Shown here: positions 19,376-29,217 of the stretch, one piece after another | How the letters are laid out: every line of letters begins with the position of its first letter | Numbering within the stretch: position 1 is the stretch's first letter | NCBI RefSeq assembly: GCF_009914755.1 | Contig: NC_060925.1 | Strand: one strand, 5' to 3' | Length of the DNA: 64,000 bases | Origin: the human T2T-CHM13v2.0 reference genome, Homo sapiens | Notes under the pieces: model-generated | The model's input: the letters and a program-made list of their open reading frames with translations, nothing else | Databases searched by the model: none | What the model was told of the DNA's origin: nothing | Position numbers and translations under genes: made by a program

Positions 19376-19533
19376 TCAGTCCCCCAGTGTCCCACAGGGA
19401 AGTGTCATCTTCTAGCATGGCTTCCTGCTGAAAATGAGCTTCCAACCATTGTACGTGTCCAGGTGCTGCTGCACTCATGAAGCCAACTTCAGGTCACACT
19501 TGCAGATCTGCTTCTGGCACTTGCTCCCAGAAC
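19376..19533 (-). pseudogene. Terminal exon of a decayed group II sPLA2 gene
   Basis: Acceptor ttcttccctggctggtccag, phase 1; reads SGSKCQKQICKCDLKLAS*VQQHLDTYNGWKLIFSRKPC*KMTLPC; Cys spacing from the first Cys onward matches PLA2G2D exon 4. Confidence 0.88.
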
Positions 19534-20725
19534 CTGGACCAGCCAGGGAAGAAATCTGGATTCTCACTTCTGGCCAGACAGACAGACCATCCCACCTCTA
19601 CCCTGACCCAGGTGTCAAGACCTTCCCAGGATGGTGCCAGGGCCCCTTTTCTTGCTGAATTTAGAAAGCCCACAACTATACAGTGTCTTCCCTGGCAGGG
19701 GTTTAATATTATCAATCAAGGGTCTGCTGGCCACCTTCTCTTTCATGAACTCCAGTTGCATCACTCCCTTCCTCTAAGGCCTTCAGTGGTTTCCCATTGC
19801 CAAGTTCCTCAGCCTGACAGTTAAGGTTCTTCGCTGTGGCTGCACTGCCTTTCCAGTTTGAATTCCCAGTTATTCCCCACCTCCCAAACCTCCACTCCTC
19901 TGCTCTTGCTCTGGTTTTCCCACCTTTCTGCCCTTGCTCTTGCTGTTTCTTCCCCCTCCGGAATGTTCATCCCCTATCTCTAGCTACTAATCGCATTTTT
20001 AAAATCAGTAACAATAATAAGAGCTACCACCTGCTGATTGTCTACCAGGTGCCAGGGTCTTTCCTACAGGTTATCTCATTGAATCTCCAACAGCCCAACA
20101 ACTAAGTGTAATCATCCCACTTAATGGGGGAGTAACTTTCAATTTGAGGCTGAACGTGTGCCCTAGGCCATGCAATCAGAGATGGGCAGAGTGGGGATTT
20201 GAGCCTGGGTCCCTGCAAATCCCAAGGCTGGGCCCACTGGCACAGAGCCTAGGCCTCGCTGCTCTCATCACTCTCCACTGTGCTTGACACAGGGCCTGGC
20301 ACAGAGGGAGCGCCCAGTAAATGTCCACGAGTTAAATCCCATGCATACCTCTACATCATGACTGCCATCAGTGGTGCCCAGAGGGCAGGGGTCACAGCTG
20401 TGTCTTCTGGGGAACCACACCCAGGAGTCAGATTTTACAATGTGAGAGGCAGAAGTCAGAATTAGGAACTCAACACAGAAAACCTGGTCTGGGGGAAGAC
20501 TGGCCCCCAGGACTCCCACTGGGTCTTCTACTGGCCAGAGGCATTTCAAGCACCTTCTGAACTTCCTCAGAAGCACAGAATTAGACCCTCTGTAGCTGTG
20601 AGGTCCAGTTCAGTGTCTTGTACCCCAAATTATCCAAGTACCTCATACATACTAAGATGGGCTAACATTCTATTAACCACAGTTTTGGGTAACTAGAAGT
20701 ATTAGAAACTAAATGCCAGGTTCGG

Positions 20726-21015
20726 GGCCAGGCGTGGTGGCTCATGCCTGTAATCCCAGCACTTTGGGAGGCTGAGGTGGGCAGATCACGAGGTCAGGAG
20801 ATCGAGACCATCCTGCCTAACACGGTGAAACCCCATCTCTACTAAAAACACAAAAAATTAACCAGGCATGTTGGTGGGTGCCTGTAGCCCCAGCTACTCA
20901 GGAGGCTGAGGCAGGAGAATGGTGTGAACCCAGGAGGCAGAGCTTGCAATGAGCCGAGATCGTGCCACTATACTCCAGCCTGGGTAACAGAGTGAGACTC
21001 CATCTCAAAAAAAAG
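20726..21015 (+). mobile_element. Alu (Y/Sc-like)
   Basis: Alu consensus. Confidence 0.9.
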
Positions 21016-21567
21016 AGGGGGCGGGGGAGTGGCGGGGAAAGAAAGAAAAGAAAAAGAAACTAAACACCAGGCTCTAGTCATGACTTTGCGCAAGTACTAA
21101 CTTTGGGCAGCCTTCTTACCTGTCATGGGCCTCGGCTTCTCATCTTTACAGAAGAATTGATAGATCATGTTTTAAAAACTGCAATCCCCGTCCACTAGTG
21201 GGTCATGAAATCAGTTTAGAGGGTTGCATCCAGTGTGTGTGCACATGTGTGTGTTAATATATCACAAGTAGTAAAGAGCTGCTTCAGCACATCGTGTGCC
21301 TATGCTGGCTGTGTATGTGTGGGTTGACTGGGTCCAGATGTCAATTTTATTACATTTTGTGGGTTGCCTTCAAAAGGATCTGAGAAAGCCTCATTCCCAT
21401 AACCTTTCAGGGCCCTTCTGGCTCTGAAGTTTCAGGCGTCTGAGTGGCTTTAGTGTCTTAGTCTTAATTAAACAAACCCCCAAAGGCTCCCCTGGGGCTT
21501 AATGTCCCTGGACTCCCCCTCATCCTTCTCTTTTGTCTTCAAACATTAGATCAGAACTGGCTTCTGA

Positions 21568-21900
21568 GGTTGAGTGTGGTGGCTCACACCTGTAATCCCA
21601 GCACTTTGGGGAGCTGAGGCAGGTGGATCACCTGAGGTAAAGAGTTCAAGACCAGCCTGGCCAACATGGTGAAACCTGGTCTCTATCAGAAATACAAAAA
21701 TTAGCCAAGTGTGGTGGTGGGTGCCTGTAGTTCCAGCTACTTGGGGGGCTGAGGCAGTAGAATCACGTGAACCCAGGAGATGGAGGTTACAGTGAGCCAA
21801 GATTGTGCCACGGCACTACAGCCTGGGCAACAGAGCAAGACTCTGTCTCAAAAAACAAACAAACAAACACACACAAAAATCCCAAACAAACAAACAAATG
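21568..21900 (+). mobile_element. Alu
   Basis: Alu consensus, (CAAA)n tail. Confidence 0.9.
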
Positions 21901-26650: not shown

Positions 26651-27804
26651 TGTCAACCAAAAGAGTCAAACTCTGCAAAATATTTGAAGGATTTATTCTG
26701 AGCCAAACATGAATGACTGGTGGCCCATGACAGTGCCCTCAGGAGATCCTGAGAACATGTGCCCGAGGTGGTGGAGGTACGGCTTGGTTTTATACATTTT
26801 AGAGAGACATAAGACATCAGTCAATACATGTAAGATGTGTATTGGTTCAGGCTGGAAAGGCGGGACAACTGGAAGTGCAGGTGTCAGAGGCATTAGAACA
26901 AGACCAACTCCATCTTGAACAAGGGCTGGGTAAAATGAGGCTGAGACCTACTGGACTGCATTCCCAGACAGTTAAGGCATTCTAAGTCAGAGGATGGGAT
27001 AGGAGATCGGCACAAGATATGGGTCATAAAGACCTTGCTGATAAAACAGTTTGCAATAAAGAAGCCAGCTAAAACCCACCAAAAGCAAGATGGCTACAAA
27101 AGTGGCCTCTGGTTGTCCTCAGTGCTACACTCCCACCAGCACCACGACAGTTTACAAATGCCATGGCAACGTCAGGAAGTTACCCTATATGCTCTAAAAA
27201 GGGGAGGCATAAATAATCCACCCCTTGTTTAGCATATCATCAAGAAATAACCATAAAAGTGGGCAACCAGCAGCCCTCTGGGCTGCTCTGTCTATGGAGT
27301 AGCCATTCTTTTATTCCTTTACTTTTTTAATAAACTTGCTTTCACTTTACTCTATGGACTCACCCTGATTTCCTTCTTGCATGAGATCCAAGAACCCTCT
27401 TTTGGGGTCTGGATCCAGACCCCTTTCTTGTAACAGAGGCTTCCAAGTCATAGGCAGATTCAAAGATTTTCTGATTAGCAATTGGTTGAAAAAGTTATTA
27501 TCAATAAAAAGGAACGTCTGGGTGATGATAAGGGGTTGTAGAGACCAAGGTTTTATCATGCAGATGAAGACTCCAGAGAGCAGGCATCAGAGTTAATAGA
27601 TTGTAAATGTTTCTTATCAGCTTAATAGATCCTGTCTTATGAGTAATTCCAAAAGGGAGGAGGGTTTAATGAGGCATATCTGGCTTCTCCTTCCCATCAT
27701 GGCCTGAAACTAGTTTTTCAGGCTAACTTTGGAATGCCCCTGGCTGAGAGGAGGGAGTTCATTCCAATGGTTGGGGAGCCTTAGAATTTTATTTTCAGTT
27801 TACA
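26651..27804. mobile_element. MER4-type ERV1 LTR inserted in a MER5-like element and itself interrupted by MER41
   Basis: tg..ca ends; ttattctgagccaaa...ggagatcctgagaacatgtgccc MER4-like sequence. Confidence 0.7.
26882..27435 (+). mobile_element. MER41 (A-like) solo LTR
   Basis: tgtcagagg...caactccatcttgaa...tgtaaca; AATAAA near the 3' end. Confidence 0.85.
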
Positions 27805-27976
27805 AAATACAGGTTCCTGGGCTCCACCCTAGACCTACAGAATCATACTCTTCAGGTTTGGGGCCCTGAGAACCTGCATTGTAAACTTGCTCCCCTGGGT
27901 GATTTTTTGTCCACCATAAAGTTTCAGACCTGCTGCTTTTGAAGCCATCCTCAAGAATTCTGGACAGAAATATGGT

Positions 27977-28497
27977 GATAATGAAGCATTAATCAGGCTG
28001 CACATTGGCTCACTTCCATGTTGCTAAAAGTCACAAAGCACTAGATACTGACCCACTTTCATCTCATGTTACTATAGATAGGATTCCTGACACTACAATT
28101 GATTGGTATTCCCATTGTTCCTATAGATATGATCTCTGACATTAGAATCACAAGACTGACTAGTTTAAGGATTGCTTAGGGTATTTTTCAAACCCCAAAT
28201 TCCAACCACCAGCTTGAAGACTCTCACAGAGGAACGAGATCAGCATGAGAATGCATGTTCTTCCTCTCCCTGTCCCGTGACATCAACCTGCACTCTTCAA
28301 CCATTCAATGATCTCCACACTTTGTCCCACTCCAAAACCCTTAAAAACCCCAGCCCCAAACTCCTCAGGGAAATGGATTTAAGGTTCTCTCCTGTCTCCT
28401 TGTTTGGTGACCCTAAGTTTAAACTTCCTTCTCTGCTGCAACCTGGTGTCTCATCGTGTTAACTTGCTGTGTGCACCAGGCAACAGACCTATTACAG
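27977..28497 (+). mobile_element. ERV1-class solo LTR (subfamily uncertain)
   Basis: LTR-like sequence (ccttaaaaaccccagcccc...ctcaggga motif). Confidence 0.55.
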
Positions 28498-29174
28498 TTC
28501 CAGTGTAGGGAGCACACTACCTGGGGTGGCGAGGGTCGCACCAGGACCCTGGGCTTAACATGGCTTTTGCTCACTTTTGCCCAGCTTCCACCATTTCTTT
28601 CTGGGGGCAGGGGGTGGGGGGACACCAAGTCTTGCTCTGTTACTCAGGCTGGAGTGCGATCTTGGCTCACTGCAACCTTTGCCTCCCTGGTTCAAGCAAT
28701 TCTCCTGTCTCAGCCTCCCAAGTAGCTGGGATTACAGGCATATGCCACCAAGCCCAGCTAATTTTTGTATTTTTAGTAGAGATCGGGTTTCACCATGTTG
28801 GTCAGGCTGGTCTTGAACTCCTGACCTCAAGTGATCCACCCGCCTCGGCCTCCCAAAGTGGCCTCCACCACTTCTCCATGAGTGAGTTACCTCAGGCAAG
28901 AAGTTTAACTCATCAGAACCTGTGTCCTCATCTGTACTGTGTGGCCAATCATACCCACCTTCGTTTTTAAAAAAAATCATACCCACCTTGCTGGGTCATG
29001 CAGAATGAAGGGTAAGTGAGAAAATGTATATAAGGTTCTTAGCACACGGGAACCCAGAAATTGGCATTTTCCCATTCCCTCTCAGGAAGCCAGAAGCACT
29101 ATGGCTGAATTTTACTCCCTTCCTTCTGCTCTGCAGTTCCTGGGCTGGTGTTTGGGGCAGGGAGGGACGCTTAC

Positions 29175-29217
29175 CGCAGAGCCAGTGACAGCTGCTGCAT
29201 CATCTCAGGGCTGAATC
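29175..29217 (-). pseudogene. Probable signal-peptide exon of the same sPLA2 pseudogene (frameshifted)
   Basis: Polypyrimidine-aag acceptor, CCCTGAGATGATGCAGCAGCTGTCACTGGCTCTGCG, gtaagc donor; resembles the PLA2G5 signal exon but has 29 rather than 40 coding nt. Confidence 0.5.

What the first reader, a model, noticed from the sequence alone, without database searches (positions are those of the whole stretch)
19376..29217. Hidden fourth sPLA2 gene: decayed group II phospholipase A2 between PLA2G5 and PLA2G2D
Seen: three minus-strand, correctly ordered, splice-site-bounded segments that reproduce the sPLA2 exon architecture. These are a signal exon (29217-29175), a 107-nt catalytic exon (22545-22439) and a terminal exon (19533-19376), with the catalytic/terminal intron phases matching PLA2G5 and PLA2G2D. 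His48/Asp49, Tyr52 and the Asp99 equivalent are retained, as are HDCCY and the 7-residue Cys-ending tail that define group II. The protein is very divergent from IID and V, so it is not a recent duplicate. Inference: an ancient paralog lost in this lineage (unitary pseudogene) that may be intact in other mammals. I know of no named human gene here but cannot check annotation.
Basis: partly seen in the sequence, partly recalled or inferred. Interest (0 to 1): 0.92.

Follow-up and report, generated by a model that had tools for sequence, protein, structure and literature searches.

The report
Dead phospholipase A2 gene remnant
Two leftover exons of an old, broken secreted phospholipase A2 gene lie unannotated between PLA2G5 and PLA2G2D; this is an ordinary gene-family relic, useful mainly for working out how the gene cluster evolved.

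Summary
The core observation is real. On the minus strand there is a 107-nt exon (22545-22439) with AG/GT borders that carries the CCxxHDCCY catalytic motif. About 2.9 kb downstream lies a terminal exon (19533-19376). Both match group II/V sPLA2 paralogues: exon 3 of 5 of 6 and exon 4 of 6 of 6 (best E 5e-6 and 3.8e-7; 20 shuffles never went below 3.3e-4). Read through with X at the breaks, the two exons align end to end with residues 63-145 of PLA2G2D orthologues at 33-40% identity. The gene is dead. It has two in-frame stops in the terminal exon, has lost one conserved cysteine column in each exon, and has no detectable calcium-loop exon 2. A somewhat better but unproven candidate lies at 30957-30918. 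Similarity to paralogues is confined to the exons, at 55-62% nucleotide identity, which is the same range as between paralogues. The duplication is therefore ancient. Trees put the relic on the IID side, but no alternative placement is rejected. RefSeq annotates nothing here. Whether an intact orthologue exists in another species (the "unitary" claim) could not be tested. Interest is modest.

The parts
22439..22545 (-). Relic of the catalytic exon (exon 3 of the family): 107 nt, entry phase 2 and exit phase 1 as in PLA2G5 and PLA2G2D. It keeps the CCxxHDCCY motif and 5 of the 6 cysteine columns of this exon. The middle of the exon is strongly diverged. It sits inside a 166-codon open frame (22775-22278).
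   Evidence: tblastn, 5 of 6 paralogues, best E 5e-6. (exon-3 HMM E 1e-5 without composition correction, 0.034 with it). (PF00068, 14.6 bits alone and 18.5 bits in the open frame; cut-off 32.1). (whole-genome PF00068 scan, 18.6 bits at chr1:19924431-19924550). (22 of 22 PDB hits at E<=1 are sPLA2, chain residues 43-77). (splice sites).
19376..19533 (-). Relic of the terminal exon (exon 4): C-terminal sPLA2 segment with the C-x-C-D motif and a Cys-ending tail, ungapped against IIA and IIE over 42 codons. It is broken by in-frame stops at 19477-19475 and 19414-19412. The last Cys codon is 19396-19394, and five further codons run to the stop at 19378-19376.
   Evidence: tblastn, 6 of 6 paralogues, best E 3.8e-7 with PLA2G2D exon 4. 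(exon-4 HMM E 3e-4 to 8e-4 for the first piece).. (blastn 66.7% over 78 nt to PLA2G2D exon 4, 70.4% over 81 nt to PLA2G2E exon 4). (13 of 13 PDB hits are sPLA2).
30918..30957 (-). Tentative signal-exon candidate, found after the fact and unproven: ATG + 13 codons + 1 nt + GTGCAG, which is exactly the family's 40-nt phase-1 layout, encoding a hydrophobic signal-like peptide.
   Evidence: sequence; among the 69 places in the whole window with this exact layout, it ranks second for hydrophobicity (2.27), behind true PLA2G2D exon 1 (2.74) and ahead of true PLA2G5 (2.16) and PLA2G2F (1.98). PLA2G2E exon 1 tblastn E 0.044, which is within the shuffle noise. My rough estimate of the chance probability is about 0.1.
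25574..25706 (-). Possible trace of the calcium-loop exon (exon 2), NOT above chance. An AG at 25708-25707 would give the correct phase-1 entry, and there is weak similarity to the IID exon-2 peptide with two stops and a 4-codon gap. There is no donor, and a masked repeat starts at 25562.
   Evidence: best tblastn E 0.026 among 53 N-terminal queries; a profile of 58 exon-2 peptides gives 4.2 bits, rank 16 of 282 places in the window (true exons score 111 and 89 bits).

Best explanation
This is an unprocessed (intron-containing) pseudogene relic of a group II-type secreted phospholipase A2. It lies in tandem with PLA2G2D, on the same strand and downstream of it, inside the OTUD3-UBXN10 sPLA2 cluster. 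What survives is the catalytic exon and the terminal exon, both with their splice sites and reading frame. The gene cannot make an enzyme. The terminal exon has two premature stops, one conserved cysteine column is lost in each exon, the middle of the catalytic exon has drifted, and the exon encoding the N-terminal helix and calcium-binding loop is gone or unrecognisable. Shown: homology, architecture, the breaks, the lack of intron similarity to any paralogue, and the absence of RefSeq annotation. Inferred: it arose by an ancient tandem duplication, as old as the main IIA/IID/IIE/V splits and possibly one of the extra D-clade copies that Koludarov et al. postulate for the amniote ancestor. 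It was later inactivated and has no present function. Because both exons are unshifted, it may have stayed under constraint for some time after the duplication. Loss of exon 2 by a discrete deletion or insertion event is then a plausible killing lesion.
For: Exon-level homology comes from tblastn with all paralogues, with shuffle and reversal controls. The read-through with X at the exon junction and at the two stops aligns over positions 1-82 with residues 63-145 of 145-aa PLA2G2D orthologues, at up to 66 bits and 33-40% identity. Pfam PF00068 matches the catalytic exon at profile positions 40-80. All PDB hits are sPLA2 chains at the matching positions. The exon is exactly 107 nt with AG/GT borders. 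Between the repeat-masked relic locus and six paralogue loci, blastn finds only exon 3 and exon 4 plus repeat edges. Nucleotide identity is 55-62%, apart from the poorly alignable PLA2G2C exons at 65.6% and 47.8%; paralogues share 50-67% with each other. No exon 2 was found by tblastn or by profile search. No RefSeq feature other than enhancers and repeats lies in 13548-33587. In both trees the relic falls on the IID side. Koludarov et al. (bioRxiv 10.1101/583344, section 10) infer at least three g2D genes in the amniote ancestor.
Against: Pfam scores are below the 32.1-bit cut-off. The relic's exon 3 scores 14.6-18.6 bits, whereas true exon 3 of the paralogues scores 31.3-40.9 bits in the same scan. 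The terminal exon gets no Pfam hit in pieces. My first small exon-3 HMM missed the exon entirely until PLA2G2C was removed and the composition correction was switched off. Subgroup placement is weak. The relic's end branch is 2.4-3.4 changes per column. AU tests reject none of the alternatives: with IIA p 0.054, IIE 0.068, V 0.11, squamates 0.11, E/F/C 0.13. They also do not establish relic+IID (p 0.245) or IID-without-relic (p 0.14). Nothing here shows when the gene died or whether it is transcribed.
Confidence: 0.85

Rival explanations
1. Unitary pseudogene of a seventh mammalian group II sPLA2 that is still intact in other lineages.
For: Both exons keep their frame, length and splice sites and carry only two stops. 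This suggests constraint lasted long after the ancient duplication. The relic is no closer to any of the six known human paralogues than they are to each other.
Against: Among the 62 proteins found from named public sources, none is more than 41% identical to the relic, and the relic-seeded word search found no candidate. Both searches are insensitive. The parts I read of Koludarov et al. name only E, A, V, D, F and C groups in mammals (sections 7, 10, 11, 13). Their gene maps are in supplements that I could not see.
Confidence: 0.15
2. Chance resemblance: cysteine-rich open frames that happen to look like sPLA2 exons.
For: Single-exon Pfam and PDB E-values are marginal (0.003-0.07). The window also holds other weak plus-strand sPLA2-like matches at noise level.
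Against: Two independent exons lie on one strand in the right order, with exact exon length, phases and splice sites, inside the sPLA2 cluster. Their E-values are 100 to 1000 times below the best of 20 shuffles. The read-through aligns end to end at 66 bits.
Confidence: 0.02
3. Recent partial duplicate (a segmental duplication fragment) of PLA2G2D or another neighbour that decayed quickly.
For: It lies in tandem with PLA2G2D in the same orientation, and the trees put it on the IID side.
Against: There is no intron or flank similarity to any paralogue locus. Exon nucleotide identity to PLA2G2D is only 57.5% and 59.1%. The relic lacks the extra codon that gives PLA2G2D a 146-nt terminal coding part; its equivalent is 143 nt, as in IIA and IIE.
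Confidence: 0.03
4. The segments are still used, as exons of an unannotated transcript (a non-coding RNA, or read-through from PLA2G2D) with a regulatory role.
For: Splice sites are intact. RefSeq lists an MPRA enhancer fragment at 24245-24414 and an 'active region' at 31172-31321 nearby.
Against: RefSeq has no transcript model there. No expression data were available to me.
Confidence: 0.05

Closest known systems
PLA2G2D (group IID secreted phospholipase A2), the upstream neighbour on the same strand
   Same: Same strand and tandem position. Same 107-nt catalytic exon with the same phases. Both have CCxxHDCCY, the G-S-x-C start of the terminal exon, an L-D-T-Y motif, and a Cys-ending C-terminal extension. 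The highest identities to the relic are with IID orthologues (up to 40.5% over 79 columns).
   Different: Identity to human IID is only 33% at protein level and 57-59% at nucleotide level. The relic lacks IID's extra codon in the terminal exon. It has stops, has lost one cysteine column per exon, and has no exon 2. IID-clade membership is not established (AU tests).
Human PLA2G2C, the known degenerate member of the same cluster (called pseudogenised in human by Koludarov et al., section 7)
   Same: A group II locus in the same cluster that has lost enzyme-defining sequence in humans. The exon 3 annotated by RefSeq lacks the CCxxHD motif.
   Different: PLA2G2C is annotated, transcribed and keeps all four coding exons. 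The relic is unannotated and only two exons are recognisable.
'Exonic debris' of Pla2g2 genes described in viperid snake clusters (Koludarov et al., section 12 passages and the Fig. 4 legend)
   Same: Orphan exons of dead tandem duplicates left inside the same syntenic cluster, which can be used to reconstruct birth-and-death history.
   Different: Those fragments are in snakes and come mainly from g2E and g2D. I found no such human fragment between PLA2G5 and PLA2G2D described in the text I read.
Orphan terminal-exon-like segment at chr1:19786784-19786903 (+), between PLA2G2E and PLA2G2A (outside the window)
   Same: Another unannotated sPLA2 exon-4 homologue in the same human cluster (tblastn E 8.5e-12 with PLA2G2E exon 4; also seen).
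   Different: It has no stop in the matched 35-40 codons and is more similar to its paralogues (51% to IIE). No partner exon was seen at E<=0.01 in the 6 kb I fetched.

Membership tests
Secreted phospholipase A2, Pfam PF00068 (Phospholip_A2_1) | Profile match at or above the curated cut-off (32.1 bits) | tested here: not met
   The catalytic exon scores 14.6 bits alone and 18.5 bits in its open frame, and 18.6 bits in the genome scan. The terminal pieces give no hit. The cut-off is meant for whole proteins, and the joined read-through could not be handed to the Pfam tool. In a script, the read-through with X scores up to 66 bits by blastp against full sPLA2 proteins.
Secreted phospholipase A2 | Catalytic His-Asp dyad within CCxxHDCCY, and the downstream C-x-C-D aspartate (residue numbering His48/Asp49/Tyr52/Asp99 is recalled, not from a call) | tested here: met
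   The motifs are present in the translations and align with the same columns of the paralogues.
Secreted phospholipase A2 | Calcium-binding loop (Y-G-C-x-C-G-x-G-G), encoded by the 139-145-nt exon 2 | tested here: not met
   No exon-2 hit at E<=0.05 on the minus strand. A profile of 58 exon-2 peptides finds only the true PLA2G2D and PLA2G5 exons. The best right-strand candidate scores 4.2 bits, rank 16 of 282.
Group II subfamily (as opposed to group V) | Second cysteine in H-D-C-C and a C-terminal extension ending in Cys (definition recalled; contrast seen, where PLA2G5 has H-D-H-C and no extension) | tested here: met
   The relic has H-D-C-C-Y and a tail of the same length as IIA, IID and IIE that ends in Cys. 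One tail position is a stop.
Pla2g2 cluster gene | Family exon architecture: 40-nt signal exon (phase 1), about 145-nt exon 2, 107-nt exon 3, then the terminal exon | tested here: inconclusive
   Exon 3 and exon 4 fit exactly. Exon 1 is only a tentative candidate at 30957-30918. Exon 2 was not found.
Pla2g2 cluster gene | Location in the syntenic OTUD3-UBXN10 interval | tested here: met
   The RefSeq table gives the order OTUD3, PLA2G2E, PLA2G2A, PLA2G5, [relic], PLA2G2D, PLA2G2F, PLA2G2C, UBXN10.
Group IID clade (g2D of Koludarov et al.) | Monophyly with IID orthologues | tested here: inconclusive
   The relic is on the IID side in two trees (split support 93/92; unresolved). AU tests reject no alternative (p 0.054-0.245).
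Unitary pseudogene | An intact orthologue at the syntenic position in another species, and no functional copy in human | not testable with these tools
   No mammalian genomes were reachable. Protein word searches found nothing close, but they are insensitive.
Unprocessed (duplicated) pseudogene | Retains introns and splice sites, lies next to its paralogues, and has a disrupted reading frame | tested here: met
   A 2.9-kb intron lies between the two exons, with AG/GT sites. There are two in-frame stops. The relic is tandem to PLA2G2D.

The most novel reading that the evidence does not exclude
The relic is the human remnant of a seventh, ancient D-clade group II sPLA2, for example the second 'g2D1' copy inferred for the amniote ancestor. 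On this reading it survived under selection well into mammalian evolution and may still be an intact, undescribed sPLA2 subtype in some mammals.
Probability: 0.15. Interest if true: 0.6.

Novelty: new member of a known kind. Interest (0 to 1): 0.3.

Why it matters
Humans are usually credited with a fixed set of cluster sPLA2 genes: IIA, IIC (degenerate), IID, IIE, IIF and V. A further dead locus between PLA2G5 and PLA2G2D, plus the orphan exon between PLA2G2E and PLA2G2A, shows that the human cluster also carries birth-and-death debris of the kind used to reconstruct the snake venom PLA2 clusters. It gives a physical marker for the extra D-clade copy that has been postulated for early amniotes. 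It is also a concrete target for asking in which lineage that copy died. It has no evident medical or functional weight as it stands.

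Tried and rejected
1. Its phase is wrong, an exon-1 HMM gives E 13, Pfam finds nothing, and the ATG-plus-donor pattern occurs at background frequency (8 seen, 9.3 expected).

2. The search for exon 2 failed. I ran tblastn with six paralogue exon-2 peptides and with the N-terminal parts of 53 of the 62 found proteins; the 9 without a CCxxH motif at position 40 or later were dropped. 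I also ran small and large profile HMMs. The only candidate on the right strand (25706-25574) is at noise level.

3. My first exon HMMs failed their own positive control. The relic's exon 3 was absent from the hit list because the degenerate PLA2G2C exon 3 was in the model and HMMER's composition correction penalised the cysteine-rich motif. This was corrected. The PLA2G5 rows used a wrong frame, because exon 1 was taken from 6457 instead of 6467. They are void and were redone.

4. Protein word searches. The relic's open frame with region 76-115 found no candidate. The PLA2G2D exon-3 open frame found 1 protein. P0001 found 62 proteins. None is an orthologue of the relic. These blanks mean little.

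5. ESM Atlas with the 35-aa exon gave a best score of 0.78. Several phospholipase-named clusters ranked 3-6. Everything is below the tool's 0.9 lead threshold, so I did not use it.

6. Subgroup assignment by tree and AU tests is unresolved. In one search I dropped three rows that one search had included, because their C-termini are aberrant (Sarcophilus P0058, Aotus P0002, Peromyscus californicus P0043), and added three further IID orthologues. Only 22 of the 62 proteins were used in each tree.

7. Weak plus-strand sPLA2-like matches at 18063-18137, 18276-18338 and 20251-20283 (E 0.007-0.039) are within shuffle noise and in the wrong exon order. I treat them as chance.

8. Prior description in print. 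Searches (listings and abstract starts only) showed nothing on a pseudogene between PLA2G5 and PLA2G2D. For Koludarov et al. (10.1101/583344) I read the outline and abstract, found passages, and sections 6, 7, 10, 11 and 13. None of these names such a human fragment. Their gene maps (SM1 Figs 24 and 31) are supplementary and were not seen, and they may show it. I could not consult GENCODE or Ensembl. I recall no pseudogene there, but recall is not evidence.

Full report
WHAT IS THERE. On the minus strand, window 22545-22439 is a 107-nt segment preceded by a pyrimidine tract ending in CAG and followed by GTGAGT. In the family's phase it reads 35 codons that begin with CCxxHDCCY and end with I-x-C. 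RefSeq exon 3 of PLA2G5 and PLA2G2D is also 107 nt and in the same phase. About 2.9 kb downstream, 19533-19376 follows a ...GGTCCAG acceptor. It reads a sPLA2 C-terminal segment with the C-x-C-D motif and a tail that ends in Cys at 19396-19394. In-frame stops interrupt it at 19477-19475 and 19414-19412, and it closes five codons after the last Cys at 19378-19376. Neither segment lies in a masked repeat. RefSeq has only enhancer fragments and repeats between PLA2G5 and PLA2G2D.

IS IT MORE THAN CHANCE. I cut the four coding exons of each of the six human cluster paralogues (IIE, IIA, V, IID, IIF, IIC) by RefSeq coordinates. I translated each exon on its own and searched the 24 peptides against window 13548-33587 with tblastn. 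Exon-3 peptides of 5 of 6 paralogues hit 22544-22440, the best being IIA at 5e-6. The sixth, IIC, itself lacks the motif. Exon-4 peptides of 6 of 6 hit 19540-19394, the best being IID at 3.8e-7. The same search on the reversed interval gave a best E of 0.017, and 20 local shuffles gave minimum E values between 3.3e-4 and 0.039. Pfam PF00068 matches the catalytic exon at profile positions 40-80, but only at 14.6-18.6 bits, below the 32.1-bit cut-off. True exon 3 of the paralogues scores 31-41 bits in the same scan. Against PDB sequences, 22 of 22 hits for the catalytic exon and 13 of 13 for the first terminal piece are sPLA2 chains at the corresponding residues. Their individual E-values are marginal, at 0.06 or worse. 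I read the two exons through in a script, with X at the split codon and at both stops. The result aligns over positions 1-82 with residues 63-145 of 145-aa IID orthologues, at up to 66 bits and 33-40% identity. Two exons on one strand, in order, with exact length, phase and splice sites, inside the sPLA2 cluster, are not a coincidence.

WHAT IS NOT THERE. From ATG 29203 to the donor is 29 nt, giving phase 2, while all six paralogues have 40 nt and phase 1. The peptide is not signal-like. An exon-1 HMM gives E 13 and Pfam gives nothing. ATG + 7-19 codons + GTRAG occurs 8 times in the 11 kb upstream on this strand, against 9.3 expected.

Looking after the fact for the exact family layout (ATG, 13 codons, 1 nt, GT), I found 69 places in the whole window. 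Ranked by hydrophobicity, the order is true IID exon 1, then a minus-strand candidate at 30957-30918, then true V, a repeat-derived poly-Phe, and true IIF. That candidate also gave the only exon-1 tblastn hit (IIE, E 0.044).

Exon 2, which encodes the calcium-binding loop and is the best-conserved exon, is not detectable. It gave no tblastn hit on the right strand. A profile of 58 exon-2 peptides scores the true IID and V exons at 111 and 89 bits. It scores the only candidate on the right strand, 25706-25574, at 4.2 bits, rank 16 of 282 places.

AGE AND KINSHIP. I ran blastn of the repeat-masked relic locus (17000-31000) against the loci of all six paralogues. It finds only exon 4 (66.7% over 78 nt to IID; 70.4% over 81 nt to IIE), exon 3 (70.7% over 58 nt to IID), and repeat edges. 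Globally aligned, the relic's exons are 55-62% identical in nucleotides to the paralogues. The poorly alignable IIC exons are the exceptions, at 65.6% and 47.8%. The paralogues are 50-67% identical to each other in exon 3. The duplication is therefore as old as the family's main splits and is not recent.

Both exons align without gaps to IIA and IIE, so no frameshift has accumulated in about 247 nt while two stops have. I read this, as inference only, as moderate decay. The gene probably stayed constrained for some time after it arose. A discrete loss of exon 2 is a plausible inactivating event.

In two maximum-likelihood trees of the 83 alignable columns, the relic falls on the IID side. In one search that split has 93/92 support; it is unresolved. 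The end branch is very long, at 2.4-3.4 changes per column. AU tests reject none of the alternatives: IIA 0.054, IIE 0.068, V 0.11, IIA+V 0.10, squamates 0.11, E/F/C 0.13. They also do not establish relic+IID (0.245). The relic shares with IID the G-S-x-C start of exon 4 and an L-D-T-Y motif, but it lacks IID's extra codon. Its subgroup is therefore 'D-side favoured, not established'.

CONTEXT IN THE LITERATURE. Koludarov et al. (bioRxiv 10.1101/583344) re-annotated this cluster by hand in 93 vertebrates. They infer at least three g2D genes in the amniote ancestor, two of them of a plesiotypic g2D1 type (section 10). They also describe 'exonic debris' in viper clusters (passages). The parts I read (abstract; sections 6, 7, 10, 11, 13; found passages) do not mention a human fragment between PLA2G5 and PLA2G2D. 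The gene maps are in supplements that I could not see. Four literature searches (listings only) turned up nothing else. The relic may thus be the human trace of one of those extra D-clade copies. That is an inference, not a result.

MECHANISM. As it stands the locus cannot encode an enzyme. It has no calcium loop or N-terminal helix exon, it has two premature stops, it has lost one of six cysteine columns in each surviving exon, and the surface loop region of the catalytic exon has drifted. The best-supported account is birth by ancient tandem duplication, followed by death and slow decay: an unprocessed pseudogene. Whether it is 'unitary', with an intact orthologue elsewhere, could not be tested. 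No mammalian genome was reachable. The protein word searches (0, 1 and 62 proteins) found nothing more than 41% identical, and they are too insensitive for that blank to count.

VERDICT. This is a real, apparently unannotated, ancient sPLA2 pseudogene relic made of two recognisable exons. It is a new member of a known kind and of modest interest (0.3). The interest would rise if an intact orthologue were found in other mammals.

Noticed in passing
outside the window: chr1:19786784-19786903 (+) = L036:2785-2904, between PLA2G2E and PLA2G2A: Another unannotated sPLA2 terminal-exon-like segment. tblastn gives E 8.5e-12 with PLA2G2E exon 4 (51% over 35 aa), and also hits with IIA, V, IID and IIC exon 4. 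There is no stop in the match. PF00068 scores 18.7 bits in the genome scan. No partner exon was seen at E<=0.01 in the 6 kb fetched.
   Followed up: partly
window 18063-18137 (+), 18276-18338 (+), 20251-20283 (+): Weak plus-strand matches to PLA2G5 exon 3 (E 0.039), PLA2G5 exon 2 (E 0.027; 11.9 bits with the exon-2 profile, the best non-gene score in the window) and the PLA2G2C C-terminal tail (E 0.007). All are within shuffle noise and the exon order is wrong, so they are probably chance.
   Followed up: partly
window 22278-22775 (-): The catalytic exon sits in a 166-codon stop-free frame that runs well into both flanking introns. This is unusually long for non-coding DNA and is unexplained beyond local composition.
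   Followed up: no
window 31172-31321 and 24245-24414: RefSeq lists an 'active region' element about 215 nt upstream of the tentative signal-exon candidate, and an MPRA enhancer fragment inside the relic's presumed intron. Whether either is a leftover of the dead gene's regulation is unknown.
   Followed up: no
outside the window: PLA2G2C exon 3, chr1:19996439-19996542 (L034, which ends at chr1:19996600): The exon 3 of human PLA2G2C annotated by RefSeq translates without the CCxxHDCCY catalytic motif and is 104 nt rather than 107. This fits its reported degenerate state in humans. Including it weakened my first exon-3 HMM.
   Followed up: partly
window 6457-6506 (PLA2G5 first coding exon): The program's table marks this exon as wholly coding. 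That is true only for predicted isoforms that start upstream. The select transcript's coding part begins at 6467, giving 40 nt as in the other paralogues. Using 6457 gave wrong frames.
   Followed up: yes
protein P0045 (Pseudonaja textilis 'basic phospholipase A2-like', 190 aa): It carries two CCxxHD motifs and two calcium-loop-like stretches, so it looks like a fused or mis-joined model of two tandem PLA2 genes.
   Followed up: no
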